Shown: one piece after another, positions 1-63,625 of the stretch
How the letters are laid out: every line of letters starts with the position of its first letter
How positions within the stretch are numbered: position 1 is the first letter of the stretch
DNA from: Squalus acanthias
Taxonomy: Eukaryota
Assembly: GCA_030390025.1 (NCBI GenBank)
Contig: CM059432.1
Coordinates: 95,048,001-95,112,000, forward strand
DNA: 64,000 nt
Direction of reading: 5' to 3'
Translations under genes and position numbers: made by a program
The notes under the pieces: model-generated
Seen by the model: only the letters and a program-made list of their open reading frames with translations
The model's database searches: none
Told to the model about the DNA's origin: nothing

Positions 1-643
1 AACAGAAATCAGTGTATTTAAACAATTAAAATGAATAATATGTTACTAACTTGATGTCTCACTAATCTGTGACTTTTCTTAGTCAGCCAGGTTTCCTGCT
101 CCTGATTAAACTTACAAAATAGCCTGTGTTGCCAGGTGGTGGATAAGAATAGGATCAGGCGTGGCTGTGATGCCTTCTATGGTTGAATAATGAGCTGATA
201 CTAACTGTCAAAACTTACACATGAAGAATAGCCACTTGGACAAGGTACTGGAGAGCAGAGGTGCCGGTATTCCAGCCTTATGAACCGTCCATCTGATGTG
301 GCACCCATTCTTAGTGGTTGCAATCACAGACACTGAGCTGTGTTTTCCCTCACAGCACCAAACTTCCATCATTTCACAAACCTGAGGTACTAGCCAGACA
401 AATTAAATTTGATTAGGTTTTAGTTATTAACAATAATACAAACAGAGGTGGTGTCTGTAGCAGATGGGGGAAAAACTCCACAATTCTTTTAAAAAGTTGT
501 TACTGATCTATTTTCTCATTAATATTTCCAGGGTCACTGTTTTGGGATCAGGGCCCAATCAGCCAGCCAATTATATTAAAAATAAAAACAGAAATGCTGG
601 AAATATTCAGCAGGTCAGGCAGCATCTGTGGAGAGAGAAACAG

Positions 644-680
644 AGTTAACATTTCAGGTCGATGACCTTTCGTCAGAACT
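644..680 (-). ncRNA. Minimal type I hammerhead ribozyme motif in Penelope pseudo-LTR
   Basis: Minus strand reads AGUU-CUGACGA-A-AGGUC-AUC-GACCU-GAAA-UGUU-AACU: core boxes, 5-bp stem II, 4-bp stem I. Stem III palindrome carries a C>T change. Confidence 0.6.
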
Positions 681-854
681 GGAAGAAGTTAGAGATTTAA
701 CAATTTATAAGCAAGTACAGAGCCAGGGAAAAGAGAGGGGGGAGGGGAGGAAAGAACAAACGGGAAGGATGTGATAGGGTGGAGGGCAGGAGAGATTAAA
801 TGATAAAAGGGATGATAGTGCAAGGCAAAAGAAGATGGTAATGGACATGCAAAG

Positions 855-1711
855 ATAGTGCCTTTCACAACCTCAGGGTGTCCCAAAGTACTTTTGTCAC
901 TGTTGAAATGTAGGAAACGCAGCAGCCAATTTGCACACAGCAAGCTCCCACAAACAGCAATGTGATAATGACCAGATAATCTGTTTTTGTGATGTTGATT
1001 GAGGGATAAATATTGGCCAGGACACCGGGGATAATTCCCCTGCTCTTCTTCGAAATAGTGCCATGGGATCATTTGCGTCCACCTGAGAGAGCAGATTAAG
1101 AAAATAAGAACATAAGAATTAGGAGGCCATATGCTCCCTCGAGCCTGCTCTGCCATTCAATAAGAGCATGGCTGATCTTCGATCTCAACTTTACTTTCCC
1201 GCCTGATCTCCATATCTCTTGATTCCCCTAGTCTAAAAATCTATCGATCTCAGCCTTGAATATACTCAACGACTCCACATCCACAGCCCTTTGGGGTAGA
1301 GAATTCCAAAGATTCACAACCCTCTGAGTGAAGAAATTCCTCTTCATCTCAGTCCTAAATGGCCGACCCCTTATCCTGAGACTATGCCCCCTAGTTCTAG
1401 ACTCTCCAGCCAGGAGAAACAATCTCTCAACATCTACCCAGTCAATCCCCCTCAGAATCTTATTATTTCACTGAGATCACCTCTCATTCTTCTGAACTCC
1501 AGAGCGTATAGGCCCAATCTTCTCATAGGACAACCCTCTCATCTCCGGAATCAATCTAGTTTAACATCTCATCTAAAAGACAACATATCCAACATTCTGC
1601 ACTGGAGTGTCAGCTTAGATTTTTGTGTTCAAGTCCCATGGAGTGGGATTTGAACCCACAACTTTCTACGTCAAAGGTGAGAGTGCTACCAACTGAGCCA
1701 CGGCTGACACT
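855..1711 (-). mobile_element. tRNA-derived Deu-domain SINE (SacSINE1-like), split by a CR1 fragment
   Basis: Pol III A box TGGCTCAGTTGG (1689-1700, minus) and B box GGTTCAAATCC (1646-1656, minus). Deu-like core and L2-like tail. Homologous copy at 51370-51782. Confidence 0.75.
1096..1558 (-). mobile_element. CR1 LINE 3' fragment
   Basis: ORF 1228-1422 (TRGHSLRIRGRPFRTEMKRNFFTQRVVNLWNSLP) is the CR1 ORF2 C-terminus; TAAGAACA-type tail at the left end. Confidence 0.9.
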
Positions 1712-2524
1712 GCTGGCTACTGCTAACAGCAGAATCATTACCAACAGCTGCTGTTCAAGAAAATGGTTATGATCTAAAGTTATTGAACTCAGTGTTGAGG
1801 CTGGAAGGCTGTAAAGTGCCTAATTGAAAATGAGGTGCTGTTCCTCGAGCTTCGGTTGAGCCAATTATATTATGTGACTGATTGGTACAACTTGGATTTA
1901 TAATTTTAAAAAATAAAACGATGCTAAATTGAAATTAATTTTGGTGCTGAAAAATACCACAGGGAGCAGTAGAAAACTATCATACTGTTATTCAGGTTTA
2001 AACTAATTTATTGCAAGAATAAAATATGCACAAAAGTAAAAAAAAATGGTGAGAAACTAGTGGTGCTAATATCTGTAAAAAAAACAATTTAAATGAGTCC
2101 ACAGGAATTTACTTCTGTACAGTGTGTTTCTTACACAGTCCAATCAACTGCAAGCCTTCCTGATATGATCTTTGTACAAAAGAGCAGTAATGTTCCTGTT
2201 TTCCACATGGGGCCCATTATTGCTATCAACACAACTGAACCTGAACTGAAGAATGGCTGTCAGCCTGCAGAATACATCCCAGCCAGAGAAGCCAGATCAA
2301 ATTAAATGTTTCATACTCCAAATGTTTATTTAAAGAAGTTCCTGCTTATTTCTCAATAGGCTTGAATAATTATTTCTAACACCTGAAAGGATGTGGCTGT
2401 GAATAGCAGCCCCTCTGCAATCTGGAGAGATGTTAAATAGGTCAGGTCTGAAACAAACCCTTTTGGACATTCTGTCAAGCATGACACCCCTTAATAGTGG
2501 TTGAAATCACAGATAGTGAGCTCT

Positions 2525-2706
2525 GAAATACAAACGGAAAATGCTGGAAATACTCAGGAGGTCCGGCAGCATCTGTGGAGAGAGAAACAGAGTTAACGTT
2601 TCAGGTCGATGACCTTTCATCAGAGATGCTGCCCGACCTGCTGAGTATTTCAAGCATTTTCTGTTTTTATTTCAGATTTCCAGCATCTGCAGTATTTTGC
2701 TTTTGT
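2525..2706. mobile_element. Palindromic Penelope pseudo-LTR mini-element
   Basis: Inverted pLTR plus direct pLTR with ~35-nt tail; 13-bp TSD GATAGTGAGCTCT at 2512-2524 and 2707-2719; hammerhead core on the minus strand at 2591-2623. Confidence 0.85.
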
Positions 2707-7640: not shown

Positions 7641-9829
7641 GTTGCTCAGAGTTCATTTGACATTTTACTATTACGCTGCATAATTTAGCAAGTTGCTTTT
7701 ATCATTCTAATCTTTATTGTACCCACATAATAATATTTTGCATTCTGCTTTTCTGTTATGAACTTGCGGACCTTCAATGCTCTCTATGTACCTGGATGAC
7801 AGATTCACTTTTGATTCCAATGTCTTTATACCTGCTGCATCCAAAAACTACCCCATTTACAACTTTGTGGGAAAATGCTGTCACCTCCCTAACTCATTTG
7901 TTGCTTCCTGTGGCCATTTCATATTCCTGCCCAGTGAGGTTTTTCCCATTGCTTTTGCCTGAAGAAATCTATGAAGTTTAAAAAAAAATGAATGAAAAAA
8001 TAGTGTGCATTCAGAGTATTCTACACGTGTATGCAGCCAAGTAAGGGTTATTACTCGTATGCAGTTACTATTGGTTTATAATGTTTTTATTTTGATTTCA
8101 AGCGTCAGTTACACAGTGACCAGTGTATATGGGGGGGCGGGGGGGGAGGAATAGAAGGGATCATATGCATGGTGATGAAAAGACCATCAGAGGGAGGCTA
8201 CCGCAGCCGTGTCTTGGTTTGTGGAATTGAGGGTACAAAGCAGCAAAAAACATTTTAAATTTGTATCCTATTTTCAAAACATTTTTCTCCAGGTCTGCCT
8301 GACTTTACAGTCACCGGCAGTATAACAGAAGCACAAGATATTTCACCATTTTCATAACCTAGTTCGATCTATAGCCTTATAGCAGTTGGCAACTGCTGTA
8401 GGAAATACTGCAGAGTTTAATAAAACTTTATTACCAGATGCTTAATTAACTAATAGTTTATCTTCTGTTGGCAAGGTGTGGGTTTCAGAGTTTGCACAAC
8501 TTAATGGGCATAATGGATATACGTCTTCACGCTTATCATTGTTACTTCATTTAAATATTAATGAGTAGGATTGTACACCTAAATGAACCTAATGACAGGT
8601 GCTGAAAATATTTTTTCATGGGGAGGGTGGGGGGGAAGAACAGCAGGGCGAGTTTGACACCCTTTCGTTTCTTAACACAGGATCCAATCCTTATACATTT
8701 GTACTTCTTTCACAATAATGACTAAACTTGGGGGACGGGAAGCTATTGAGTGCATAAAATGTCTTTCAAAAGGTTAAAGCAGGTTGCATAGATTTTAATG
8801 CTGACAATGCATTTTTCCTGAACAGTATTTTTAGCTTATTGTTTCCCTCAGTTTTATAAATGAGAATGTGGAACATAATATAATTTAAAAAAAAATAAAA
8901 GGTATATGCACCATAATAGAATATAAAGGACATGAGTAAAGTCAATGCAGTAAGTGCAAACTTAAATATAAAACATTCTTATCAGTGCTGTTTTATTTTC
9001 TTATTTTTAGAAAAGCAGCTTTACTGACCCTTCCATAGTTTTATACCCACAGCACTCAGGTATTTGTAGAACGACTATTGATTTGGGTACAACCCCATGG
9101 CTATAAAATTTGATAAATGTGTTACTTATTAACTTTTCTGGAGGTCATTTGTTTGTCTCTCACAGGTTATGTTAAAAGCTCCCACAAATCCTTAAATCAG
9201 CATTATTGATTTTTTTTTGTTGAAACTCTAATGATGATGTGTTAACTTTAAAGCGGGCACGCCAAGGTTAATAGTTCATTTATGCATTGCATTCTGGGAA
9301 TGTAAAGATTTAAGCTCTTTTTGTGTTTAAGGGAAATGTATTTCTTTGCTTTCAAAGGCAAAAATGTGATTGTATAAGTTAATTCTGGCTGCTGTCATAA
9401 TGTTCAATTAGCTTTTTGTGTAAATATGTTTTCACCATCATTTTTTCAGAATTATGACTTGGAGCCAAGTAGAATAGGCCTTCATGGGTGTGGCTATTCT
9501 TGTGCCCTGTTCTTGCACGTGATTTGTTAAGTGTTAACACAAAATGTCAGAGCAATGGCACAGTCCACAAACAAAGCATGTTCAACACAGTGACCTATCA
9601 CAGTATTAGATTTCATTTTCAGCCTGATAGCCATCAAAAAACTGTCTATCTTGGCTGTCTAAGAATAGAATAGTTAATGACCTGTTCTCTTAAAGTATAA
9701 TAAAAAACACAATGAAGAGATGAAGAAAAACTTTATTGAAACAGGAACAAATAATAAAACATTTTTATTAAAGTGTTATGGAAATGGGAACAAACAATAA
9801 AAACGGAAACTGAATTTCAATGGTGCTAT

Positions 9830-9905
9830 GAAATAAAAACAGAAAATTTTGGAAATACACAGGTCAGTCAGCATCTGTAACGAGAAAAGACAGGTTAACC
9901 TTTAA
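9830..9905 (-). mobile_element. Degenerate Penelope pseudo-LTR fragment
   Basis: aaataaaaacagaaaatt...cagcatctgt...gttaacc resembles the pLTR at 579-680. Confidence 0.55.
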
Positions 9906-10009
9906 GATGCAGAAACGAAAACTTAAATAATGAGCAAACATTTTAGTAAGGCTAGAGTAATAGGAAAATGGCAAGAGGATAGAAACAGTAGATACTCAGT
10001 GAGGGAGCT

Positions 10010-12790: not shown

Positions 12791-12795
12791 GATGG

Positions 12796-13490: not shown

Positions 13491-13667
13491 TTCTTATTAC
13501 TTTCTTTGTATCCCTCTGTTTTTTTTATATAGCTTTCCCAGTCTGCTGGTTTTCCACTTTTCCTTGCATTTGTGCAAGCCTTTTCTTTAAGCTTGATACT
13601 ATCTTTTACCTCATTTGCTGATCATGGTTGCTTAACTACACAAGTGGAGCCTTTGCCTTTTAGGGCT

Positions 13668-16690: not shown

Positions 16691-17189
16691 ACCGTTTACA
16701 CTTTGTATTATACTAATGGTATATTGAGGAGTCCTATGAACATGGATCGCTGGCTCAGCCACTACGATTGCTGCTTCACTTCATTTCCTGATAGTGGAGA
16801 GTGAAGTAAGAGTTTGTTTTGTTCCAGGTTTTTCACTGGTGAGTGACCCAGGATGAAACCATGTTGCTATTGTATGTTTGTGGTGCAGGTTTTTACTAGT
16901 GCCTGGAGAATGACAACAAGAAATTAGTCATTGAATCACGCCAAACATCAGAGTTAAATGACACTCATCGTGTACAGTACAATGGAAATGTATTATGAAA
17001 TTTAATTTGCCAAATGTTGAATGACAGGGTAGTAGGTTAGTAAAAAAGGAACCGCCTGTTAGGCCGCAACCAACAAGGTGAGGTTTTAAAATATACTTAT
17101 TTGAGTGTGGAGCTGGGAGGCGCAGGAGAACTTCTTCCAGTGCTACATTCAAAAATAGTTGCTGCAGCTCAACACTCCTCTACCAATTG

Positions 17190-25657: not shown

Positions 25658-25867
25658 TCACAAGGGTAGTCGCTTGGGTGTTCTGTTGTGTTGTCTTTAA
25701 TTTTTGCCATTGTCATCCTTTTGTGCATTGATTAAACAGAAGTGATGGCAAACAGTTGAAGTTCTGGCCTATAGACATAGAAACATAGAAGATAGGAGCA
25801 GGAGTAGGCCATTCGGCCCCTCGAGCCTGCTCCGCCATTCGATGAGATCATGGCTGATCATCCAAAC

Positions 25868-28729
25868 TCAGTACCCTGTACCTGCCTTCTCCCCATATCC
25901 CTTGATACCTTTAGCTTTAAGAAATATATCTAACTCATTCTTGAATATATTTAATGACTTGGCCTCAACTACCTTCTGTGGTAGAGAATTCCACAGGTTC
26001 ACCACTCTCTGGGTGAAGAAATTCTTCCTCATTTCTGTCCTAAATGGCTTACCCCTTATCCTTAGATTATGACCCCTGATTCTGGACTCTCCGACCATCG
26101 GGAACATTCTTCCTGCATCTAGTTTGTCCAGACCTGTCAGAATTTTATATGTTTTGATGAGATCCCCTCTCATTCTTCTATACTCCAGCGAGTATAAGCC
26201 AATCGACCCAATCTCTCCTCATATGTCATTCCTGCCATCCCAGGTATCAGCCTTGTGAATCTTCGCTGAAGTCCCTCCATGGCAAGAACATCCTTCCTCA
26301 GATAAGGCGACCAAAACTGCACACAATACTCAAGGTGTGGTCTCACCAAGGCCCTGTACAACTGCAGCAGGACATCCCTGTTCCTATACTCAAACCCTTT
26401 CGCTATGAAGGCCAACATACCATTTGCCTTCTTCACCGCCTGCTGCACCTGCATGCTTACCTTCAGCGACTGGTGCACAAGGACACCCAGGTCTCGTTGC
26501 ACTTCCCCTTCTCCCAATCTATTGCCATTCAGATAATAGTCTGCCTTTCTGTTTTTGACACCAAAGTGGATAACCTCGCATTTATCCACGTTATATTGCA
26601 TCTGCCACGCTTCTGCCCACTCACCCAACCTGTCCAAATCATCCTGGAGTTTCTCGGTATCCTCCTCGCAGCACACACTCCCACCCAGCTTTGTGTCATC
26701 TGCACACTTGGAGATATTACATTTAGTTCCCTTATCTAGATCATTAATGTATATTGTGAATAGCTGGGGTCCAAGGACCGATCCCTGCGGTACCCCACTA
26801 GTCACTGCTTGCCACTCGGAAAAAGACCCATTAATTCCTACTCTTTGCTTTCTGTCCGCCAACCAGTTCTCTATCCAAGTCAATACCTTGCCCCCAATCC
26901 CATGTGCCTTAACTTTACACGCTAATCTCTTATGCTGGGACCTTATCGAAAGCCTTTTGAAAGTCCAAATACACCACATCTACTGATTCTCCCTTATCTA
27001 TTTTCCCAGTTACATCCTCAAAAAATTCCAGTAGATTAGTCAAGCATGATTTACCTTTTGTAAATCCATGTTGACTTTGTCCGATCCTGTCACTGTTTTT
27101 CAAGTGCTCAGCTATTACATCCTTTATAATGGACTCTAGCATTTTCCCCACTACCGATGTCAGGCTTACCGGTCTGTAATTCCCCGCTTTCTCTCTACCA
27201 CCCTTTTTGAATAGTGGGGTAACATTAGCTACCCTCCAATCCATGGGTACAGTTCCAGATTCCATTGAATGTTGGAAGATGATCAGCAATGCATCTACTA
27301 TTTCTAGGGCCACTTCCTTAGGTACCCTAGGATGTAGATTATCAGGCCCTGGGGATTTATCGGCCTTCAATCCCGTCAATTTCCCTAACACGATTTCCCT
27401 GCAAATACTGATTTCTTTCAGTTCCTCCCTTTCATCAGACCGTATGTTCTCCAACATCTCTGGGAGGTTATTTGTGTCCTCCTTTGTGAAGACAGAACCA
27501 AAATATGCATTTAATTGGTCTGCCATTTCTTTGTTCCCCATTATAACTTCCCCCGCTTCTGACTGCAAGAGACCTACACTTGATTTCACTAATCTTTTTC
27601 TCTTCACATATCTATAAAAACTCTTACAGTCAGTTTTTATGTTCCCTGAAAGCTTACTTTCATATTCTATTTTCCCCTTCTTAATTACTCCCTTTGTCCT
27701 CCTTTGTTGAATCCTAAACTGCTCCCAATCCTCAGGGTTACCGCTTTTTCTGGCCAATTTATATGCCCTCTCCTTGGATCTTATGCGATCCCTAATTTCC
27801 CTTGTTAGCCACGGTTGAGTCACCCTCTTTGTTTTATTCTTATGCCACACTGGGATGAACAAATTCTGTAGTTCATCCATGCAGTCTTTGAATGTTTGCC
27901 ATTGCCTATCCACCGTCAACCCTTTGAGTGACATTCCCCAATCAATCCTACCCAATTCGCGCCTCATACCATCGTAGTTTCCTTTATTTAAATTCTGGAC
28001 CCTAGTCTCTGATTCAACTACTTCACTCTCCATCCTAATGAAGAATTCTATCATATTAGGATCACTCTGACCCAAGGGGCCTCGTACAACAAGATTGCTA
28101 ATTAATCCTTTCTCGTTACATAATACCCAGTCTAAGATGGCCTGATCTCTGGTTGGTTCCTTGACATATTGGTCCAGAAAACCATCCCGTATACACTCTA
28201 GGAATTCCTCCTCCACAGTATTTTTACTAATTTGGTTATCCCAATTTATATGTAAATTAAAGTCACCCATGATGACTGCTGTGCCCTTACTGCATGCTTC
28301 TCTAATTTCCCTTTTAATGCCATCCCCAACCTCCGTATTACTGTTTGGAGGTCTATATACCACTCCCACTAACGTTTTCTGCCCCTTGTTATTTCTCAGT
28401 TCTACCCATACAGATTCCGCATCATCAGAGCTAATATCCTTCCTTTCAATTGTGTTAATCCCCTCTTTAACCAGCAATGCTACCCCACCTCCCTTTCTTT
28501 TTTGTCTATCTTTCCTAAATATTGAATACCCCTGGATGTTGAGCTCCCAGCCTTGGCCACCCTGGAGCCATGTTTCTGTAATCCCAATCAAATCGTATTC
28601 ATTTACCTCTATTTGCGCAGCTAATTCATCCACCTTGTTCTGAATGCTCCTTGCATTAAGACACAAAGCCTTCAGGCTTGTTTTTTTAACGCTCTCAGAC
28701 CTATATGAATTATTATTTACTGTGACCAT
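25868..28729 (-). pseudogene. CR1 ORF2 (APE endonuclease + reverse transcriptase) with two frameshifts
   Basis: Split over ORFs 26930-28729, 26170-26979 and 25868-26173. Motifs LNARS, TETWL, GDFN, GVPQGS; catalytic motif reads CADD instead of FADD. Confidence 0.95.
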
Positions 28730-28851
28730 GTTTGATTTAAACCGTTGAGTTCTTTGCCTTCTACTTTTGTTTTTCTCCTTCCTGTCTTTTGCTTTTATCC
28801 TTGTTTCCCTTGCCTCTGTCTCCCTGCTCAGGTTCCCAACCCCCTGCCACT

Positions 28852-29802
28852 TTAGTTTAAACCCTCCCCAACAGCACTAGCAAACACTCCCTCTAGGACA
28901 TCGGTCCCGGCCCTGCCCAGGTGCAGACTGTCCCATTTGTACTGGTCCCACCTCCCCCAGAACCGGTTCCAATGTCCAAGGAATTTGAATCCCTCCCCCT
29001 TGCACCATTCCTCTAGCCACGTATTCATTTGAAATATCCTCCTATTTCTACTCTGACTAGCACGTGGCACTGGTAGCAATCCTGAGATTACTACCTTTGA
29101 GGTCCTATTTTTTAATTTACCTCCTAACTCCCTATATTCTGCTTTTAGGACCTCATCCCATTTTTTACCTATATCGTTGATGCCTATGTGCACCACGACA
29201 ACTGGCTGTTCACCCTCCCCCTCCAGAATGTTCTGTAGCCGCTCTGAGATGTCCTTAACCCTTGCACCAGGGAGGCAACACACCATCCTGGGGTCTCGTT
29301 TGCGGCCGCAGAAATGCCTATCTATTCCCCTTACAATTGAATCCCCTATCACTATAGCTCTTCCACACTTTTTCCTCCCAGCCTGTGCAGCAGAGCCACC
29401 CATGGTGCCAGGAAGTTGGCTGCTGCTGCCTTCCCCTGATAAGTCATCCCCCCCAACAGCATCCAAAGTGGTATATCTGTTTGAGAGGGGGATGGCCACA
29501 GGGGACCCCTGCACTACCTGCCTGCACCTCTTACTCTGCCTGGTGGTCACCCATTCACTTCCTGCTTGTACACCCTTTACCTGCGGTGTGATCAACTCTC
29601 TAAACATGCTATCCACGACGTTCTCAGTGTCGCGAATGCTCCAATATGCATCCATCCGCAGCTCCAGCGCCGCAATGCGGTCCATCAGTAGCTGCAGCTG
29701 GATACACTTCCCACACACATGGTCGTCAGGGACACAGGAAGTGTCCCTGATTTCCCACATATAGCAGGAGGAGCATATCACAGGGCGGAGCTCTCCTGCC
29801 AT
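28852..29802 (-). CDS. CR1 ORF1: zinc finger/leucine zipper plus SGNH esterase
   Basis: Intact 316 aa; CSSC...CGKC; GDS, HIGIND and DSLH motifs typical of CR1 ORF1 esterases. Confidence 0.9.
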   Translation of the reverse strand: MAGELRPVICSSCYMWEIRDTSCVPDDHVCGKCIQLQLLMDRIAALELRMDAYWSIRDTENVVDSMFRELITPQVKGVQAGSEWVTTRQSKRCRQVVQGSPVAIPLSNRYTTLDAVGGDDLSGEGSSSQLPGTMGGSAAQAGRKKCGRAIVIGDSIVRGIDRHFCGRKRDPRMVCCLPGARVKDISERLQNILEGEGEQPVVVVHIGINDIGKKWDEVLKAEYRELGGKLKNRTSKVVISGLLPVPRASQSRNRRIFQMNTWLEEWCKGEGFKFLGHWNRFWGRWDQYKWDSLHLGRAGTDVLEGVFASAVGEGLN

Positions 29803-30065: not shown

Positions 30066-30288
30066 CCTACCTGCTCCTCGGGCTGGCTTTTATACTCTGC
30101 TGTCGCCGCTCCTCCGAGGTCCGCACCGTCGCTGCTGTGGGCCTACCTGCTCCTCGGGCTGGCTTTTATACTCTGCTGTCGCCGCTCCTCCGAGGTCCGC
30201 ACCGTCGCTGCTGTGGGCCTACCTGCTCCTCGGGCTGGCTTTTATCCTCTGCCGCCGCCGCTCCTCCTAGGTTCGCACCGCCGCTGCT
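30066..30288 (-). repeat. 76-bp tandem monomers (~2.9 copies) at the CR1 5' end
   Basis: Units start at 30066, 30142 and 30218; the sense strand has TATAAAAG in two units and GATAAAAG in the third. Confidence 0.9.
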
Positions 30289-30344
30289 ATGTGATCTGGG
30301 AAATGGAAGTTGCACATTGAGGGCTCAGAGCGACTTGCATTTGT

Positions 30345-34111: not shown

Positions 34112-34694
34112 ATACCACTGAAATGACAAGATTGCTGAAACACGCTGAATTAATGATTGCTCTGTCTCTCTCTATCGACTTCAGTACCTTCTCAAAGCAA
34201 GGTTTCTTAATATAATCAATATCCATTGTTTTAAAATAAAACATTCCAAACCAGAAAGGGAGCATGTGAACAAGTGCGAACCTCTAGCAGAATGTAATTT
34301 GTTGTATTGGGTTTATCTTAGTATGGAAATAGATTTCAGTTGTAGGGCTATGATTCTACAGTAGGAGTATCCATTACAGCAAGCATAGCTTTTCAAGCTG
34401 AAAGCTTCATTGTCTTAAAAGATTTGACATTCAGATTAAGTTCAGTTGAAATGTTCATGCTAACAATAACATATCGATAATAAAAGTGCACTACTCTCTA
34501 GTCTGTCTAGTTTTATCCTAATGCACTCTGTCATAATCTCCCTAATGACAGCCCTCACTGTTAAACCACCCGAACTGCACAGCGATCAGAAGAGATTTGA
34601 TTCTTTATTTATAAAACAGACTTGAAATTTACAAGAGGTCAATGGAAAATGGATACCACAGCTCCGAGGAGTCTTAGGAGACCTCGAAACTAAG

Positions 34695-34925
34695 ATAAAA
34701 AGAACAGCAAATGCTGGAATTCTGAAATGAAAGCAAAAAGTGCTGTAAATACACAGCAGGTTAGTCAGCATCTGACAGAGAAAGAGGGGTTAATGTTTTG
34801 CGTGTAAACTGAGTTCCAATGAATGTTACATCCAAAACGTTAACCTTTCACCAGAACTTAGTTTATACCTGAAATGTTAACCTCTTACATGTGCCAATTG
34901 ACCTGCTATGCAATTTTTGTCTTTA
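34695..34925. mobile_element. Old degenerate palindromic Penelope pLTR element
   Basis: gcaaatgctggaattctgaaat...cagcatctg...gttaa arm followed by ctgaaatgttaac...gacctgct reverse arm. Confidence 0.55.
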
Positions 34926-35139
34926 TTTAAGTCTCTAGTTCACAATTTGAAAGCTTTTCAATTACACTTCATCACTCCAGTTAAAGAAATGTTGTTACAG
35001 GTCAAATATAGAAATCCAGTAGTTACCCTTCAACTGGGAGGCTCATTTCTTGCCTGGCTGCAAACACTCAGAACCCGTCGGGCAAGCAAGTGCTACCACT
35101 TTATGATATCATTGCCTTGAACATCTTAGTGAATACATC

Positions 35140-35263
35140 TATTTATTTGCCTTGCACCATCATCACTTTGGTCATTGCATCACTCCTGCCCTCCACTATA
35201 TCACAAATCTCTCCCTTTTGTATTTTCCCTAACCCTTTTCCCTGGCTCTGCACTTACTTAAAA
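35140..35263 (+). mobile_element. Penelope 3' UTR fragment, cut by a hAT element
   Basis: Reverse-complement similarity to ~705-830 (ttgccttgcaccatcatc...ccctggctctgcacttactta). Confidence 0.7.
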
Positions 35264-36049
35264 TAGGGTGACCATATGTCCCCGTTTACCGGGGACAGTC
35301 CCCGGATGAGGTACTGTGTCCCCGTGCAAACAATGTCTCCAGTTCGCAAAACCCGGCCCCAAATACCCTAATTTTTAATTTCTCATGTTGGAATATGACG
35401 TACAACACACATACCGTTCACCCTAACTTGATTACATGTTTCCTTCCCGGGCGCCCCCTGTCAATCACGCCCACCGTGAGCACCGACTGGTCGGGAGGCC
35501 AGTCCTGAGGTGGGCTCGGCGATGTAAGGGGGTCTATTGGTTAGCGTCCACGTCAAGCGAGCGCCGAACGGCAGGCATGCGCCGCCAGCGAGTTCGGCTG
35601 TTCTCCTGACCCAGCCTCACTCAACAACCAAACTGCTAACATATTCTCCCCCCCTCTTCCTTTGCTGCAGGATGTACCAGTTTGAATCGCAGGTGGTCGC
35701 GAGCTGATTAGCCAGCGGGCTTCCGATTTCATCATCTCTTTTTCCATCCCCGCCACAATTCGAAATTGTCACAATTCGGAAGCCGATTGGTCAGTCACTG
35801 ACGGTTACGCCCAATGATTCCGTTAATATATTACGTATTTATTTTTGAAAAAAATGGTCAGTAACTCTGGAGTGCAGTGGAGACAAAAGGACAGGTGCCC
35901 TGCAGCAGTGTCGACAGTGGATACAAAGCACTGATGTTCCTGAACAGTGTTAGTGTATTATTTATAAACCGTGTCTGAACACGCTTCAATAGTGTGATGT
36001 CACATCCGCAGTAATTATATGCACATTGGTTTTGTATTTGTTTTGTATT

Positions 36050-36080
<31 letters not shown>

Positions 36081-36158
36081 GTTTTTGCCTCGCTACGGTG
36101 CCCAACCTACATTTTCTGTCCTGGCTATTTTGCTGTGCTCCCACCCTGTGTGTCCCCA

Positions 36159-36187
<29 letters not shown>
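35264..36187. mobile_element. Non-autonomous hAT (Blackjack-like) element, copy 1
   Basis: TIR TAGGGTGACCATAT; inverted homologue of 52261-53169; flanks ACTTAAAA and CCTAACCA do not form a TSD. Confidence 0.9.
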
Positions 36188-52260: not shown

Positions 52261-52367
52261 TAGGGTGACCATATTTTCTAAACCGAATCTGGGGACACAC
52301 AGTGTGGGAGCACAGCAAAGTAGCCAGGACAGAAAATGTAGGTTGGGCACCGTAGCGAGGCAAAAAC

Positions 52368-52398
<31 letters not shown>

Positions 52399-53169
52399 AA
52401 TACAATACAAATGTGCATATAATAACCGCAGGTGTGATGTCACTATTGAAGGGCATTCAGGTACTGTTTATAAATAATACACTAACACAGTTCAGGAACA
52501 TCAGTGCTTTGTACCCACTGTCGACACTGCTGCAGGGCACCTGTCTTTTTCTCTCCTCTACGCTCGAGGGTCGCCGACTGTTTTTTTCAAAAATAAATAC
52601 GTCATATATTAATGGAATCATTGGGCGTAACTGTCGACCAATCGGCTTCCGAATTGTGACAATTTCGAATTGTGGCGGGTGGGTGGGGGTGAGGAAGGAG
52701 ATGACGAAATCGGAAGCCCGCTGACCAATCGGCTCGTGACCGCCTGTGATTCAAACTGGTATATCCTGCAGCGAAGGAAGAGGGGGGGAAATAAAAGTGA
52801 GGTTTTGGTTGTCGAGCGAGGCTGGGTCGGGAGAACAGCCAAACTCGCTGGCAGCTAACGTGGACGCTAACCAATAGACCAGCCCCTTACATCGCCGAGC
52901 CCACCTCAGGGCTGGCCTCCCGACCAGTCGGTGCTCACGGAGGACGCGATTGACAGGGGGCACCCGGGAAGGAAACGTGTAATGAAATTAGGGTGAACAG
53001 TACAGTGTATGTGTGTTGTACGTCACATTCCAACATGAGAAATTAAAAGTTAGGGTATTTGGGGACGAGTTTTGTGAACCGGGGACTCTACTGGGGACAT
53101 TGTTTGCCCAGGGACACAGTACCTCGTAAGGGGACTGTCCCCGGAAAATGGGGACGTATGGTCACCCTA
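52261..53169. mobile_element. Non-autonomous hAT (Blackjack-like) element, copy 2
   Basis: TIR TAGGGTGACCATA; perfect 8-bp TSD AGGTAATC (52253-52260, 53170-53177). Confidence 0.92.
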
Positions 53170-55130: not shown

Positions 55131-55889
55131 AGTTGGAGAATCGTTGCCCTCCTGAGCTTGAGTATCACTTTTCAAATGCTTTCCCAAAATAACAGCATAT
55201 ATGTCTAACTATATATACCTTAATATATAACTATAATTTTCAAATTTTCAAAAATCTGGTTTGATGGCTGCCCTAAGAGAGAATATTGAAATTCAATAAC
55301 ACAGAATGCACCATGTAATGTTTTGATGCTAAAGTTAGATCAGAGTCATCAGTTCATGCACAGGAAGGTCTCACTCTAACTTATTTAAAACTTTAATGTA
55401 AAAAATATTTTTTTTATAGCACACGTTTATGTAACACTATTATATTGCTATTTATAATTAAATAGTAAAGCTTATGACAATTTGGAAAGCAAATAAATAG
55501 AATTGTTTGGAACATAGTAATTTTTCTGCAGTGTAGGCTGAGGAGCTAGGGGTAGCATAACTGAGGTGATACTTTTTATTTCAGAATTCCAGCATCCTCA
55601 GTATTCTATTTTTTATTACTACAGCACCACCGCTGGTGGGAGGGTGTAATTACAACATGACAAATTTACATCAACAGTTTTCAGTATAAATGTGAACATA
55701 GGAATTTATAACGGCTAAAGTTCACACAAGAGTGTGACAAAAACATGACTACAGCAAGTAAGGTTTTGTAGACAAGAAGTACACATAGATATAAAACTTT
55801 TAATATATTATTGATTTTTATTGATAGAGTATGCTGTTTCTATGCAAAAAATTAAAGAGGAATTGCTAAATAAAACAGGCTACGTTGTT

Positions 55890-58857
55890 ACATAGATACA
55901 TAGATACATAGAAGATAGGAGCAGGAGTAGGCCATCCGGCCCTTCGAGCCTGCTCCGCCATTTAATGAGATCATGGCTGATCCTTCAATTCAGTATCCCG
56001 TCCCCGCCTTCTCTCCGTAACCCTTAACCCCTTTTGCCTGTAGAAATATATCTAATTCCCTCTTAAATATATTTAATGAGCTGGCGTACACTGCCCTCTG
56101 TGGCAATGAGTTCCACAGGTTCACCACTCTCTGAGTGAAGAAATTCCCCCTCATTTCTGTCCTAAATGGTTTAGCCCTTATCCTTAAATTATGTCCTCTA
56201 GTTCTGTTCTCACCCGCCAAGGGAAACATTCCTTCTGCATCTAATCTGTCTAGACCTGTCAGAATTTTATACACTTCTATGAGGTCCCCTCTCAATCTTC
56301 TAAACTCCAGTGTGTACATCCCTAAACTACATAGTCTCTCCTCATAGGTCAATCCCGCCATTCCTGGTATCAGCCTGGTGAATCGCCGCTGCACCCCCTC
56401 CATGGCAAGAACATCTTTCCTCAGATGAGGCGACCAAAACTGTACACAGTACTCGAGGTGTGGTCTCACCAGTGCCCTGTACAGCTGCAGCAAGGTATCC
56501 CTGTTCCTGTATTCCAACCCTTTTGCTATGAAGGCCAGCATACCGTTTGCCTTCTTGACCGCCTGTTGCACCTGCATGCTCGCCTTCAGTGACTGGTGTA
56601 CAAGAACACCCAGGTCTCTCTGTACTTCCCCCTCTCCCAATTTATTGCCATTTAAATAATAATTTGCCCTCCCGTTCCTGCACCCAAGGTGGATAACTTC
56701 GCACTTGTCCACATTATAGTGCATCTGCCATTTATCCGCCCAATCACCCAGTCTGTCCAAATCGCTCTGGAGCTTCCTGGTCTCCTCCTCTGAGCCCACC
56801 CCCCCTCCTAGTTTAGTGTCGTCTGCAAATTTGGAAATGCTGCATTCGACTCCCTGATCCAGGTCATTAATATAAATTGTGAACAGCTGGGGACCCAGGA
56901 CAGATCCCTGTGGTACCCCACTTGTTACTGCCTGCCATTCAGAAAATGAGCCGTTTATTCCAACTCTCTGTTTTCTATCTGACAGCCAGTTCTCTATCCA
57001 CGTCAATACTTTCCCCTTTATCCCATGAGCTTCAATTTTCCATGCTAATCTTTTATGTGGGACCTTATCGAAGGCCTTTTGGAAGTCCAGGTACACCACA
57101 TCTACTGGATCTCCCCCATCTATTTTACCAGTTACTCCCTCAAAAAATTCCAATAGATTAGTCAAGCACGATTTACCCTTTGTAAATCCATGTTGACTCT
57201 GTCCTATCCTGTCCCCATTTGCTAAGTGCTCGGCTATTTCATCCTTAATGATGGACTCCAGCATTTTGCCCACAACTGATGTAAGGCTTACAGGTCTGTA
57301 ATTACCTGCTTTTTCCCTACCCCCCTTTTTGAATAGTGGGGTAACGTTAGCTACCCTCCAATCCATGGGCACTGTTCCCGAGTCTAATGAATTCTGAAAA
57401 ATCATGCTTAGTGCATCCGCTATCTCTAGGGCCACCTCCTTCAGTACCCTAGGATGCATGTTATCAGGCCCTGGGGATTTGTCCGCCTTCAATCCCTTTA
57501 GCTTCCTTAACACCATATCCTTAGAGATATTGATTTGCGTCAGTTCCTCCTTTGCCAATGTCCCTATTTTTCCCGATATCCCAGGGAGGTTTTTTGTGTC
57601 TTCCTTCGTAAAGACTGACCCAAAGTATGCATTTAGTTGGTCTGCCATTTCCTTATTTCCCATTATATATTCCCCCGTATCTGACTGCAATGGACCAACT
57701 TTGGTTTTCACCAGTCTTTTCCTCTTGATATACTTATAAAAGCTTTTGGAGTTAGTTTTTATATTTTCCGCCAGCTTGCTTTCGTAAGCTATTTTGCCCT
57801 TCTTGATTAAGCCCTTTGCCCTCCTTTGCTCTATCTTAAACTGTTCCCAATCTTCCGCTCTGGCGCGTTTTTTGGCTATTTTATACGCCCTATCTTTGGA
57901 TTTTATGCTGTCTCTAATTTCCCCTGTTATCCACGGTTGAGTCACCTTTTTAGATTTCCTTTTATGCCAGATTGGTATAAACAATTTTTGTAATTTTGTC
58001 ATTCTATCTTTAAATGCTTGCCATTGTTTATCTACCTCCAGTCCTCCCAGGAACGTTGTCCAATCAGACCTACTCAGTTCCCGTCTAATGGCATCATAAT
58101 TCCCCTTGTTTAAATTCAGGACCTGAGTCTCTGAGTCAATTTCTTCGCTCTCCATTTCGAGTGAGAAATCGATCATGTTATGATCGCTCTGACCCAAGGG
58201 TCCCCGTACAACAAGATTACTAATTAGTCCCTTCTCATTGCACAGTACCCAGTCCAATATAGCCTGTTCCCGAGTTGGTTCCTCGACATATTGATCCAGA
58301 TAACCATCCCTTAAACACTCAAGGAATTCCTCCTCCTCATTATTTTTACTGATTAGGCTAGTCCAATCTATATGTAAGTTAAAGTCACCTATGATGACAG
58401 CTGTGCTCTTATTGCACGCTTCTCTAATTTCCCTCGTGATGCCCTCCCCAACCTCTATTTTACTATTTGGAGGCCTATATACCACTCCTATTAATGTTTT
58501 TCGCCCCTCGCTATTTCTTAGCTCCACCCATATAGATTCTGTATTAACTGAGTTAATATCCTTCCTTTCAATTGCATTTATCCCCTCTTTTACCAGCAAT
58601 GCTACCCCTCCTCCCTTTCTTTTTTGTCGATCCTTCCTAAATACTGAATACCCCTGTATGTTAAGCTCCCAGCCCTGCTCACCCTGCAACCATGTTTCCG
58701 TAATCCCAATTAGATCATAATTATTAACCTCTATTTCCACAGCTAATTCATCTACCTTGTTCCTGATGCTTCTCGCATTAAGGTATAAAACCCTCAGGCT
58801 TTTTTTATGCTCACATTTTTTATGAATTAGTTTGGCCCTTTGTTTTTTGTCAGTTGT
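55890..58857 (-). mobile_element. CR1 LINE, 5'-truncated just upstream of ORF2
   Basis: (CATAGATA)n tail, 3' UTR, uninterrupted ORF2; no ORF1. Confidence 0.95.
55990..58857 (-). CDS. CR1 ORF2 (APE endonuclease + reverse transcriptase), open frame without an N-terminal ATG
   Basis: The 916-aa track ORF extends upstream through LYLNARS to a TGA at 58858-58860; TETWL, GDFN, SDH, PQGS and FADD are all intact. Confidence 0.85.
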   Translation of the reverse strand, partial: TTDKKQRAKLIHKKCEHKKSLRVLYLNARSIRNKVDELAVEIEVNNYDLIGITETWLQGEQGWELNIQGYSVFRKDRQKRKGGGVALLVKEGINAIERKDINSVNTESIWVELRNSEGRKTLIGVVYRPPNSKIEVGEGITREIREACNKSTAVIIGDFNLHIDWTSLISKNNEEEEFLECLRDGYLDQYVEEPTREQAILDWVLCNEKGLISNLVVRGPLGQSDHNMIDFSLEMESEEIDSETQVLNLNKGNYDAIRRELSRSDWTTFLGGLEVDKQWQAFKDRMTKLQKLFIPIWHKRKSKKVTQPWITGEIRDSIKSKDRAYKIAKKRARAEDWEQFKIEQRRAKGLIKKGKIAYESKLAENIKTNSKSFYKYIKRKRLVKTKVGPLQSDTGEYIMGNKEMADQLNAYFGSVFTKEDTKNLPGISGKIGTLAKEELTQINISKDMVLRKLKGLKADKSPGPDNMHPRVLKEVALEIADALSMIFQNSLDSGTVPMDWRVANVTPLFKKGGREKAGNYRPVSLTSVVGKMLESIIKDEIAEHLANGDRIGQSQHGFTKGKSCLTNLLEFFEGVTGKIDGGDPVDVVYLDFQKAFDKVPHKRLAWKIEAHGIKGKVLTWIENWLSDRKQRVGINGSFSEWQAVTSGVPQGSVLGPQLFTIYINDLDQGVECSISKFADDTKLGGGVGSEEETRKLQSDLDRLGDWADKWQMHYNVDKCEVIHLGCRNGRANYYLNGNKLGEGEVQRDLGVLVHQSLKASMQVQQAVKKANGMLAFIAKGLEYRNRDTLLQLYRALVRPHLEYCVQFWSPHLRKDVLAMEGVQRRFTRLIPGMAGLTYEERLCSLGMYTLEFRRLRGDLIEVYKILTGLDRLDAEGMFPLAGENRTRGHNLRIRAKPFRTEMRGNFFTQRVVNLWNSLPQRAVYASSLNIFKRELDIFLQAKGVKGYGEKAGTGY

Positions 58858-59549
58858 TCATTGAATTCATGTTGTTTCACATATGGGAATAATACGAGCT
58901 GTTGGTAGTGCACATTGTAAACTCATCTTGTCTGGGAAAGATGCAATTTTCTTCTCTTCTGTCTCTTCCATTATTTTGAAGGAGAAACTGCTCAGGGCTA
59001 TGTTACATCTTAGAAACATTACGGGGCATTTTTCACCTTCATCGCTTGGGCGGTAAACTGGCAGAAATGGAAATGAATGAAATGGAAATTAGGCAGGTTC
59101 TATAATGCGCTATTTTACCACAAAGTGCTGATGGTGATAATTACCCCCATAGGTTAATTCATAGCATATTACCAGAGATCAGCATAGCGCCTCTGTAGAT
59201 AGCTGGTGTAATCAGCTGGTCAAGGAACAATGGAGCCCTTGCCATAGGGAGGAAAAGTGGATTTCCCCCCTCCCCCCATCCTGGTAATGGAATGTAACGA
59301 AACGTAATGTAGATTTCAGTGAGTTGAAGTTTCACACTGGCATAAAGCTGGTGGGAGGAAATGCAATTTTATTGATTTCAGAAGATTCGATTTTAATTTG
59401 AACAGTGCCCACTCACTGCTCCTTAACTGTTCTCTCGCTACATGAAAATTACTTGGGATCCTATTTTTTGGGCTGTTAGTTATAAAGGCAATTCAAGCAT
59501 TTTTTCCCAATGGTAACCACATTCATTAGCTGCTGAGTGATTTACACTA

Positions 59550-59785
59550 ACACAAAAGCAAAATACTGCAGAGGCTGGAAATCTGAAATAAAAACAGAAA
59601 ATGCTGGAGATACTCAGCAGGTCAGGCAGCATCTGTGGAGAGAGAAACAGAGTTAACGTTTCAGGTCGATGACCCTTCGTCGGAACTGTTGAAAGGTCAT
59701 CGACCTAAACCGTTAACTTTGTTTCTCTCTCCACAGATGCTGCCTGACCTGCTGAGTATTTCCAGCATTTTCTGTTTTTATTATA
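59550..59785. mobile_element. Palindromic Penelope pseudo-LTR mini-element
   Basis: Tailed arm on the left; 16-bp TSD TGAGTGATTTACACTA (59534-59549, 59786-59801); both hammerhead cores mutated. Confidence 0.88.
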
Positions 59786-60150
59786 TGAGTGATTTACACT
59801 ATCTATTTCAATTAATTACATCTTAACTTACCAGAGATGGTATGTCAAGCCATCCAGGCAAATTTTAGCTGAAACTTAAAAAGTGGAAATGAGCCACTTG
59901 ATCTATACAAGTGAGCGTGATCCACAGCAATGGTAAAGCAGTAAAAGGCAGCAGGTCACTGGATACCAATAAGGAGTGGAAACCCCCGTAGAGCTTTCTC
60001 TCTCTAGCCCAAGAGTGTTAAGGCCAATTGTACTGTCCCCATTGCTGCATTGGCTGATATTAGAGAGCTCAGCATGGACTTGGAATTGAAGCTGGGACAC
60101 TCCTGCTCTTTATGGTGCATATATCAACTGAACCATTGGAGAAACATATA

Positions 60151-61598: not shown

Positions 61599-62312
61599 TC
61601 ACCATGCGCTGCCAAGCTGAGGCAGTCTCATTCTGCTACACTTCAGATTTAGATCAGACTTTGAATTTACACTGGAAGCAGAACATGCTTCACACTGATG
61701 CTAAGCTAATAAATATACCCTTAGATAATGTAGTTGAATTGAAAACAAAATGATTCGTAGTCATTTCATCAAATTTTATATTACAATTTTTGTTAGGCTT
61801 AGGTAAAACCATAAATATTATTGGACTGGCGTTAATACATCTGATCCAGATATGGCTTGTAGTTCTGGAATTGTGTGTCTTAACTTGAAATAGGCAGTGT
61901 TAATTTAACTAATTGGATTTGCCCCTCCCAATAATTGTCCGAATTGGCATTTTTTGTATAGTTAATTACAAGCTTGAATATATCTCATTTAAAAATATTT
62001 GTGAAAATTCAAAAGATATAAGTGACCTCATTGGGCACCAGAAGTGATACTTGATTTTGACAATCAGACTGCCTTCTCTTTCTAGCTATGACACTAGTTT
62101 TATAATACTGAGATGGGCATTTGTAAATAGTGCTAATGCCACAAATGCTATTTGCCCAAGGGTAAATAGTGTTTGTACCGTTGAAATCCAAGGGAAGATT
62201 AAGGCATGTTATTTTCTAATTTATCGTATAATGCATTTAAGTTCTGATAATGATCAGTCCCTCACTTTAAGTAAATAAATAACTGCAGTTAATACAGTTT
62301 AATCAACAAGGC

Positions 62313-62548
62313 CAAAAATAAAAACAGAAAATGCTGGAAATACTCAGCAGGTCAGGCAGCATCTGTGGAGAGAGAAACAGAGTTAACATTTCAGGTCGAT
62401 GACCCTTCGTCAGTTCTGATGAAGGGTCATCGACCTGAAACGTTAACTCTGTTTCTCTCTCCACAGATGCTGCCTGACCTGCTGAGTATTTCCAGCATTT
62501 TCTGTTTTTATTTCAGATTTCTAGCATCTGCAGTATTTTGCTTTTGCA
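62313..62548. mobile_element. Palindromic Penelope pseudo-LTR mini-element
   Basis: ~100-bp near-perfect inverted arms plus tail; 14-bp TSD TTAATCAACAAGGC (62299-62312, 62549-62562). Confidence 0.9.
62412..62448 (+). ncRNA. Minimal type I hammerhead ribozyme motif
   Basis: AGUU-CUGAUGA-A-GGGUC-AUC-GACCU-GAAA-CGU-U-AACU: intact core, palindromic ACGU stem III, predicted GUU cleavage triplet. Confidence 0.65.
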
Positions 62549-62684
62549 TTAATCAACAAGGCAATAGTTTGAATGAATTGATTAATAACACAATGGTCTA
62601 TTAGATGGATTCAATACTAGTAGATGTTTGAGTGAAGTTTTCATTTTTTTTCTCGTTCTAAGCATCTTCCTTTAAGTTTTACAA

Positions 62685-62795
62685 TAGCAAAATACGGCAG
62701 ATGCTGGAATCTGAAATAAAAACAGAAAATGCTGGAAATACTCAGCAGGTCAGGCAGCATCTGTGGAGAGAGAAACAGAGTTAACCTTTCAGGTT
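62685..62795 (-). mobile_element. Single Penelope pLTR plus tail fragment
   Basis: Near-identical to the tailed arm of the palindromic elements; truncated within hammerhead stem II. Confidence 0.8.
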
Positions 62796-63504: not shown

Positions 63505-63625
63505 TTGTATAAAGCATTTGACGATGCACTGCAGTGTCAGCCTAGATTATCTAATCAAGTCTCTGGAGCTGGGCTTGAACACATGACCTCCTGGTTCAGA
63601 GGTGAGAGTGCTACTACTGAGCTAT
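63505..63625 (-). mobile_element. tRNA-SINE head fragment (Deu SINE-like)
   Basis: gcagtgtcagcctagatt...cttgaac...ggtgagagtgctactactgagc resembles 1600-1700. Confidence 0.6.

What the first reader, a model, noticed from the sequence alone, without database searches (positions are those of the whole stretch)
62313..62548. Family of hairpin mini-retroelements made only of inverted Penelope pseudo-LTRs, each with a long TSD
Seen: three complete copies (2525-2706, 59550-59785, 62313-62548) look like MITEs, but have TSDs of 13, 16 and 14 bp, and only one arm carries an extra ~35-nt tail. The same unit ends a GIY-YIG-bearing fragment with a 14-bp TSD at 579-1858, which ties it to Penelope. The inversion junction differs between copies but always lies at or beside the hammerhead core. 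Known: Penelope-like elements form inverted pLTRs and carry a short tail. Inference: this is either a stereotyped abortive Penelope insertion product or a non-autonomous ribozyme-bearing retroelement family that is easily mis-annotated as a DNA MITE.
Basis: partly seen in the sequence, partly recalled or inferred. Interest (0 to 1): 0.75.

Follow-up and report, generated by a model that had tools for sequence, protein, structure and literature searches.

The report
Hairpin stubs of Penelope retroelement insertions
These short hairpin-shaped repeats in a shark-like genome are most likely dead-end insertion stubs of a Penelope-type jumping gene, laid down in a pattern already described for this class, but their recurring turning point may mark where the element's RNA begins.

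Summary
The three hairpins are real, with exact 13-, 16- and 14-bp TSDs, a 35-nt tail on one arm only, and a minimal hammerhead motif. One correction: 59550-59785 and 62313-62548 share the same junction when oriented by the tail (235 nt ungapped, 94%). The turn lies at the hammerhead's 5' edge, 29-33 nt upstream of the predicted cut site. Single-armed copies end at either tail boundary, which matches the two reverse-transcription starts mapped in Anolis Poseidon (PMC11167929). Public contigs of three organisms show a very abundant family, several different inversion joints and a pile-up of 5' ends at that same edge. Best reading: one-off, body-less versions of the known 'inverted pLTR plus one-sided tail' insertion, made from two short cDNAs that stop at a fixed template boundary. 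It is not a MITE or a retrozyme; a self-copying 236-bp unit is unlikely but not excluded. The GIY-YIG label of the 579-1858 copy rests on recall; no tool confirmed it. This scan has noted the same pattern before in other genomes.

The parts
62299..62312 (+). left target-site duplication, 14 bp
   Evidence: exact match to 62549-62562
62313..62413 (-). inverted, tail-less pLTR arm; its inner end stops at the first base (C3) of the hammerhead core, so helix I of this copy is missing; 2-3 non-matching letters at the outer end
   Evidence: I1: 62316-62413 against 62416-62513, 98%
62411..62416 (.). inversion junction: 3-nt inverted microhomology (CAG/CTG) at the 5' edge of the hammerhead; same junction as in 59550-59785
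   Evidence: (I1)
62412..62448 (+). minimal type I hammerhead motif: helix I 62412-62415 with 62445-62448, core 62416-62422, one extra base, helix II 62424-62436, GAAA 62437-62440, palindromic ACGU in place of helix III; predicted cut 62444/62445
   Evidence: features compared with Cervera and De la Pena 2014; no Rfam hammerhead hit; cleavage not tested
62411..62513 (+). forward pLTR arm (element sense)
62514..62548 (+). 35-nt tail, present on this arm only
62549..62562 (+). right target-site duplication, 14 bp
59550..59785 (-). second hairpin copy, tail arm on the minus strand, 16-bp TSD (59534-59549 and 59786-59801); same junction as 62313-62548; its arms differ at 8 of 95 sites
2525..2706 (+). 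third hairpin copy, 13-bp TSD (2512-2524 and 2707-2719); tail-less arm reaches the hammerhead edge, tail arm lacks its first 51 nt
579..1858 (-). 5'-truncated single-armed copy without tail, 14-bp TSD (565-578 and 1859-1872): pLTR arm 579-681, pyrimidine-rich 3' region 682 to about 856, later insertions about 857-1712, and about 30 frameshifted codons at 1772-1858 (GIY-YIG end by recall only)
   Evidence: protein identity not confirmed
62681..62793 (-). solo arm WITH tail, cut off inside helix II; probable 10-bp TSD with one mismatch
34690..34930 (.). old, decayed two-armed copy of a diverged subfamily; no TSD recovered; borders approximate
9790..9906 (-). old solo arm, about 81% identical; no TSD recovered; borders approximate

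Best explanation
Each hairpin is a one-off, dead-on-arrival insertion of an endonuclease-bearing Penelope-like element (PLE), probably of the Penelope/Poseidon type: the known 'inverted pLTR plus one-sided tail' insertion without a body. Shown here: TSDs, arm and tail anatomy, use of both tail boundaries as outer ends by single-armed copies, and a recurrent inner end at the hammerhead's 5' edge. Inferred, in order: (1) the PLE protein nicks both target strands 13-16 nt apart; (2) each nick primes reverse transcription, one at the far tail boundary and one at the near boundary 35 nt upstream; (3) both cDNAs stop after about 100-135 nt at a fixed boundary at window 676-681, most simply the 5' end of the RNA when internal priming happens at the 5' pLTR-ORF junction (a splice boundary or a structural stop are alternatives); (4) the two cDNA 3' ends are joined head to head, with a 3-nt CAG/CTG match when both are full length and at other points when one is shorter or trimmed; (5) fill-in gives the TSD. 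The ribozyme does not set the junction. That these are PLE by-products rather than self-copying units or MITEs I put at about 0.85; the confidence given is for this two-primer route.
For: Outer ends: the tail-less single-armed copy at 579 ends where the inverted arms end, and the solo at 62681 carries the tail. Frangieh 2024 maps two RT start sites that bracket the tail, shows cutting and extension of both target strands, and predicts a dimer. Outer ends vary by 0-3 letters between copies. Inner ends: 5 of 8 young arms in the window stop at 676-681 in 579-copy coordinates, 2 stop further in (627, 659) and 1 runs on (the 59550 tail-less arm read by eye, blastn stops at 671). In contigs of three organisms, loose ends with low-agreement AT-rich letters pile up behind 677-679 (208, 392 and 131 contigs), and 4 of the 6 opposite-strand joints shown have one arm ending at 677-680 while the partner varies. 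Summed contig depth over the arm is 13, 13 and 28 times that over 772-831 (not a copy number). The two arms of 59550-59785 carry different letters at a site that is dimorphic in the family (window 668, about 20-49% of summed depth), a weak sign of two templates. The Anolis protein needs RNA beyond the start sites (to +172), which a stub ending at the tail may lack. Inverted pLTRs, a one-sided tail, long TSDs and palindromic junctions are described.
Against: The symmetric junction of the two 236-bp copies is not among the 15 joints shown (170 hidden), so its genome-wide share is unknown. Only 1 of the 6 contig joints has microhomology of 3 nt or more (background 5%), so annealing is not the general rule. 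No genome was held, so the sample with TSDs is three hairpins. No RNA 5' end was mapped and no spliced joint was among the rows shown. The depth step could partly reflect faster divergence of the 3' region and of the 579 copy itself. The autonomous partner was not found. Arkhipova 2013 reads junction palindromes as self-priming, and Craig 2021 ascribes the tail to endonuclease resolution.
Confidence: 0.55

Rival explanations
1. Single-template snap-back: one cDNA primed at the tail runs to the hammerhead edge, folds back on the CAG-NN-CTG mini-palindrome, copies itself, and is cut or joined 35 nt short of the start.
For: 3-nt inverted microhomology at the shared junction; Arkhipova 2013 interprets junction palindromes as self-priming; arms of 62313-62548 differ at only 2 of 95 sites, both CpG.
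Against: The tail-less end is also the end of a single-armed copy (579) and matches a mapped RT start in Anolis; arms of 59550-59785 differ at a family-dimorphic site; most contig joints lack microhomology.
Confidence: 0.17
2. Solo formation by recombination: a full insertion (inverted pLTR, then pLTR-ORF-pLTR-tail) lost its body by recombination between the two direct pLTRs, leaving the hairpin and the TSD.
For: That full arrangement is described for Adineta Pen2a with a 9-bp TSD and a one-sided tail; collapsing it gives this anatomy; arm excess over body resembles solo-LTR excess (recalled).
Against: The direct repeats would be only about 100-135 bp; most PLE insertions are 5'-truncated at birth; solo single arms with TSDs exist in the window.
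Confidence: 0.13
3. A self-propagating, non-autonomous 236-bp palindromic retroelement mobilised in trans by the PLE protein.
For: Two of three hairpins share junction and length yet have different TSDs; pLTR sequence alone appears sufficient for trans-mobilisation in Adineta; non-autonomous PLE derivatives exist.
Against: No arm-specific letter is shared by the two same-junction copies. Several other joints exist. The template would be a 98-bp near-perfect duplex (-187.5 kcal/mol) that buries both priming region and ribozyme. Nothing explains why such an RNA would begin at the antisense of the near RT start. The stub may lack the downstream binding sequence needed in vitro by the Anolis protein.
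Confidence: 0.12
4. A DNA MITE whose TIRs happen to resemble Penelope ends.
For: Short, non-coding, long inverted arms, many copies.
Against: TSDs of 13, 14 and 16 bp; ragged, asymmetric ends; the same arm ends single-armed copies; a true TIR element in this window has fixed ends and an 8-bp TSD.
Confidence: 0.02

Closest known systems
Inverted-pLTR insertions of EN+ Penelope-like elements with a one-sided tail (Adineta Pen2a/Pen3a, PMC3846280; scheme in PMC8557442 Fig. 2; D. virilis Penelope, PMC2377424)
   Same: Head-to-head inverted pLTR, 30-40-nt tail on one end, TSD of variable length around the whole unit, short palindrome or overlap at the junction
   Different: No body at all; arms only 100-135 nt; TSDs 13-16 bp against 8-10 bp in Adineta; the inner end recurs at one spot, whereas D. 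virilis inverted repeats vary in size by copy
Poseidon of Anolis carolinensis (PAc; Frangieh et al. 2024, PMC11167929)
   Same: Hammerhead in the pLTR, two end points a tail-length apart some tens of bases downstream of the cut site, cleavage not needed for insertion
   Different: Clade of the shark element not tested (no RT recovered); the text read does not describe body-less hairpins or their junctions
Minimal hammerheads of metazoan PLEs (Cervera and De la Pena 2014, PMC4209133)
   Same: 4-bp helix I, extra base after A9, palindromic ACGU instead of helix III; the paper notes pairs about 100-700 bp apart on opposite strands and many single motifs from truncated PLEs
   Different: First helix II pair is G-U or A-U, not the usual G-C; helix II is 5 bp; U at position 17
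Non-LTR retrozymes (listing of PMC7229834; bioRxiv 10.64898/2026.07.22.740005)
   Same: Short, non-coding, PLE pLTR-related, type I hammerhead
   Different: Retrozymes are head-to-tail tandems with two same-sense ribozymes; here the two motifs are on opposite strands and one is incomplete
L1 twin priming (Ostertag and Kazazian 2001; recalled, not read)
   Same: Both target nicks prime cDNA, giving an inversion inside one TSD
   Different: L1 twin priming copies two different parts of one RNA; here the same segment is copied twice

Membership tests
EN+ Penelope-like element (insertion product) | PLE-type RT plus GIY-YIG endonuclease in the parent element | tested here: inconclusive
   Only about 30 frameshifted codons at 1772-1858; no Pfam, database or Atlas match; no other PLE ORF in the window; resemblance recalled
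EN+ Penelope-like element (insertion product) | pLTR in direct or inverted orientation | tested here: met
   Inverted arms in 3 of 3 hairpins; same arm ends the longer 579-1858 copy
EN+ Penelope-like element (insertion product) | 30-40-nt tail, often on one end only | tested here: met
   35 nt, one arm only in 3 of 3; present on the solo at 62681, absent at 579
EN+ Penelope-like element (insertion product) | minimal type I hammerhead in the pLTR | tested here: met
   Core, extra base after A9, palindromic 15.2-16.2 and short helix I present; G10.1-C11.1 pair absent; Rfam silent; activity untested
EN+ Penelope-like element (insertion product) | variable-length TSD and 5' truncation | tested here: met
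   13, 14, 14, 16 bp exact; 10 bp with one mismatch at the solo
Penelope/Poseidon clade | RT phylogeny and domain order | not testable with these tools
   No RT sequence obtained; no genome held
MITE (non-autonomous TIR DNA transposon) | fixed short TSD typical of a transposase superfamily | tested here: not met
   13, 14, 16 bp; the TIR element at 52261-53169 has 8 bp
MITE (non-autonomous TIR DNA transposon) | precise, symmetric terminal inverted repeats | tested here: not met
   One-sided 35-nt tail and ragged ends
Non-LTR retrozyme | head-to-tail tandem units with at least two complete same-sense type I hammerheads | tested here: not met
   Opposite-strand motifs, one without helix I; definition
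Non-LTR retrozyme | self-cleaved, circular RNA intermediate | not testable with these tools
   Only contigs were served
Self-propagating non-autonomous retroelement | many copies sharing one junction and co-inherited diagnostic letters | tested here: inconclusive
   2 of 3 share the junction; no shared arm-specific letter; other joints in contigs, symmetric joint not countable

The most novel reading that the evidence does not exclude
The 236-bp unit with the CAG/CTG junction is a self-copying, palindromic non-autonomous Penelope derivative (a retro-element that mimics a MITE), which arose from the stereotyped by-product and now spreads in trans in shark-like genomes. A milder novel reading, at about 0.3, is that the stubs are strong-stop-like products, in which internal priming at the 5' pLTR runs off the RNA's 5' end on both target strands.
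Probability: 0.12. Interest if true: 0.62.

Novelty: new member of a known kind. Interest (0 to 1): 0.3.

Why it matters
How PLEs make inverted pLTRs and one-sided tails is still called unresolved (PMC8557442, PMC11167929, passages read). Body-less hairpins at very high copy number are the simplest products of that reaction. Their outer ends give the two priming sites, their TSDs the stagger of the cuts, and their inner ends the template boundary, so a census in an assembled shark genome could separate two-primer from snap-back models. In practice, annotation pipelines can file them as MITEs or miRNA hairpins (Rfam's best match was a sub-threshold mir-14). The pattern itself is known and this scan has met it several times, so the finding is of modest interest unless self-propagation or the fixed 5' boundary is proven.

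Tried and rejected
An exact 26-nt pattern found 0 loci in metagenome and 0 in viral contigs. Partner search: a motif scan and tblastn found no other PLE coding piece in the window. The 43-codon open frame through the pLTR and tail found no longer protein (also no Pfam). The coding stub at 1770-1892 found none. A scan of 1.84 billion representatives gave 3 hits, all repetitive unrelated proteins that score by summing repeats, and I dropped them. The Atlas gave no usable hit. A supplement search of PMC8557442 for two 5-residue stretches, 'milii' and 'shark' was empty. Supplements 1-2 of PMC11167929 are figures with almost no text and its gbk file is unreadable, so exact PAc tail coordinates were not seen. 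Rfam gave only sub-threshold miRNA and IRES matches. No RNA holder was on record; X20 is only guessed to be RNA and says nothing about transcription. The tail to tail-less ratio could not be read, because a private 1-nt deletion in the 579 copy clips most contigs at 592. Rejected: junction at the ribozyme cut site (29-33 nt away); local duplication of one hairpin (different TSDs, no shared flank); MITE; retrozyme. A splice-acceptor-like run and an initiator-like motif both sit at the hammerhead edge in the 579 copy (motif definitions recalled); neither was tested. Literature searches found no paper devoted to body-less PLE hairpins; most subscription papers and Repbase/Dfam entries are outside this library.

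Full report
Setting. The window is repeat-rich vertebrate DNA with CR1-type LINE ORFs and SINE-like pieces. I call it shark-like from recalled repeat content and from earlier notes on this genome. No whole genome is held.

Observation. All four TSDs are exact at the stated borders: 13 bp (2525-2706), 16 bp (59550-59785), 14 bp (62313-62548) and 14 bp (579-1858). Exact repeats of this length at both borders of 4 of 4 loci are far beyond chance. The arms are 98 nt at 98%, 92 nt at 95% and 63 nt at 86% complementary. In each hairpin one arm runs 35 nt further. The window also holds a solo arm with tail (62681-62793, probable 10-bp TSD with one mismatch), an old two-armed copy near 34690-34930 and an old solo near 9790-9906.

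Correction on junctions. Oriented by the tail, 59550-59785 and 62313-62548 are collinear without gaps over 235 nt at 94% (I1) and read alike across the turn. The tail-less arm stops at C3 of the hammerhead core, the tail arm starts 2-5 nt upstream, and the two overlap in a 3-nt CAG/CTG match. In 2525-2706 the tail-less arm stops at the same place, but the tail arm lacks 51 nt. The two same-junction copies are separate insertions: their TSDs and flanks differ, and their arms have diverged to different degrees (2 and 8 differences in 95 sites).

Hammerhead. At 62412-62448 the sense strand has the core boxes, an extra base after A9, a 5-bp helix II, a palindromic ACGU in place of helix III and a 4-bp helix I. 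These match the minimal PLE hammerheads of Cervera and De la Pena 2014 (PMC4209133; parts 1-2 of 4 read), except for the usual G10.1-C11.1 pair. That paper notes such motifs in pairs 100-700 bp apart on opposite strands, says they need same-RNA dimers, and found no activity for a single motif. Rfam gave no hammerhead match. The predicted cut is 62444/62445, 29-33 nt from the junction, so cleavage does not make the turn. In a hairpin transcript the second motif is antisense and lacks helix I. Forcing the first to fold raises the energy from -187.5 to -138.7 kcal/mol.

Link to Penelope. The 579-1858 copy has the arm, a pyrimidine-rich 3' region, later SINE-like and CR1-type insertions and about 30 frameshifted codons at its 5' end. 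These look to me, from memory, like the end of a PLE GIY-YIG domain. Pfam, two protein searches and the Atlas did not confirm this, so the label is recalled. The PLE assignment rests on anatomy. Inverted pLTRs, a 30-40-nt tail on one end and TSDs around the whole unit are described in Arkhipova 2013 (PMC3846280, passages), Craig 2021 (PMC8557442, passages), Schostak 2008 (PMC2377424, abstract and passages) and a curation guide (PMC8969392, passages). A review passage confirms minimal hammerheads in PLE repeats (PMC6155905).

Outer ends. Frangieh 2024 (PMC11167929; parts 1-2 of 4 and three supplements) shows that Anolis Poseidon cuts and extends both target strands and starts reverse transcription internally at two sites that bracket the tail. 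It does not need ribozyme cleavage, and it needs RNA to +172 of the ORF, beyond the preferred start at +111-118. Here the tail-less single copy at 579 ends where the inverted arms end, the solo at 62681 carries the tail, and all ends vary by 0-3 letters. Both tail boundaries therefore behave as independent start points, and each hairpin has used one of each.

Family-wide view. I laid Logan contigs of 4 of the 24 listed runs on 520-875: 39,016, 48,773 and 52,265 contigs from three organisms, and 2,849 from a run guessed to be RNA. Summed depth over the arm is 13, 13 and 28 times that over 772-831. This is not a copy number and may be inflated by divergence of the 3' region. Of 15 joints shown (170 hidden), 6 change strand: 626/662, 627/660, 634/679, 636/677, 636/680 and 643/680. 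Four have one arm ending at 677-680 and a shorter partner, like 2525-2706. Only 643/680 has microhomology of 3 nt or more (background 5%). Among 24 loose-end rows shown (1,266 hidden), four lie behind 677-679 (208, 178 plus 214, and 131 contigs) with long, AT-rich, low-agreement letters, which I read as unrelated flanks. So single arms also stop at the hammerhead's 5' edge. The symmetric junction was not among the rows shown; very common palindromic centres may break into contigs too short to call a joint (inference), so this is no evidence either way. In the window 5 of 8 young arms end at 676-681, 2 end further in and 1 runs on.

Mechanism. The simplest account is two priming events, one per nicked strand, each giving a cDNA of about 100-135 nt that stops at a fixed boundary, followed by head-to-head joining and fill-in. 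The boundary may be the RNA 5' end: PLE transcripts start inside the pLTR, and internal priming near the 5' pLTR-ORF junction would run off there. An initiator-like motif sits at 680 in the 579 copy, but so does an acceptor-like run (motif definitions recalled), and the D. virilis intron ends at the 5' side of helix I. I could not tell these apart. These steps are inferred, not shown.

Rivals. Snap-back from one template fits the junction palindrome and is the reading of Arkhipova 2013. It predicts identical arms at birth, yet the 59550 arms differ at a site dimorphic in the family (window 668), which is weak evidence against. Recombination between the direct pLTRs of a full insertion would give the same anatomy and is not excluded. 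Self-propagation is favoured by the shared junction. Against it, the two copies share no arm-specific letter, other joints exist, the spot is a general stopping point, and the RNA would be a near-perfect duplex. A MITE is excluded by TSD length and end anatomy; a TIR element in the same window shows fixed ends and an 8-bp TSD. Non-LTR retrozymes are head-to-tail tandems (bioRxiv 10.64898/2026.07.22.740005, parts 1-3 of 5; PMC7229834 seen only as a listing), which this is not.

Novelty. The insertion pattern is in print. Nine searches found no paper devoted to body-less hairpins or to a fixed inner boundary, but the library lacks most subscription papers and the repeat databases. Earlier notes of this scan describe the same kind of stub in other genomes and reach a similar verdict; I treat them as leads, not support. 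My reading of the junction as not the cut site was noted before I saw the note that says the same. One note reports an intact young PLE with two hammerhead pLTRs in this genome, a candidate partner that I could not check.

Verdict. Real; a new member of a known kind; interest 0.3. What is worth following is the recurrent inner boundary, because it makes the open question of how PLEs form inverted ends testable by a census.

Noticed in passing
window 35264-36187 and 52261-53169: Two copies (83% identical) of a ~925-bp element with short terminal inverted repeats; the second has an 8-bp TSD (hAT-like by recall). The first cuts off an old Penelope-like 3' piece at 35146-35263.
   Followed up: partly
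window about 857-1712: A SINE-like insertion inside the 579-1858 copy (1598-1698 matches 63525-63622), with a CR1-type LINE 3' end nested in it at about 1121-1560.
   Followed up: partly
window 55990-58857, minus strand: Uninterrupted 955-codon LINE frame with endonuclease and reverse-transcriptase domains; related pieces near 25750-28876 and 12779-13621.
   Followed up: partly
window about 17184-19400: A 23-nt minisatellite of about 90 copies that gives long open frames.
   Followed up: no
window 62419-62547: One reading frame stays open for 43 codons from the hammerhead core through the tail, as in other PLEs where the ORF begins in the pLTR; no protein match.
   Followed up: partly
window 679-681, 62464-62466 and 62515-62517 (approximate; element sense): Three pyrimidine-tract-plus-CAG runs that resemble splice acceptors lie at the hammerhead edge, at the 626/627 joint cluster and at the tail boundary; may be coincidence in a pyrimidine-rich repeat.
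   Followed up: no
window 668 and 62424: The common family dimorphism swaps A-U for G-U in the first pair of helix II, so pairing is kept in both forms.
   Followed up: no
window 55573-55613: A 41-nt match (83%) to the tail alone, without the arm.
   Followed up: no
window 30066-30293: Three head-to-tail 76-nt repeats, two identical (D19).
   Followed up: no
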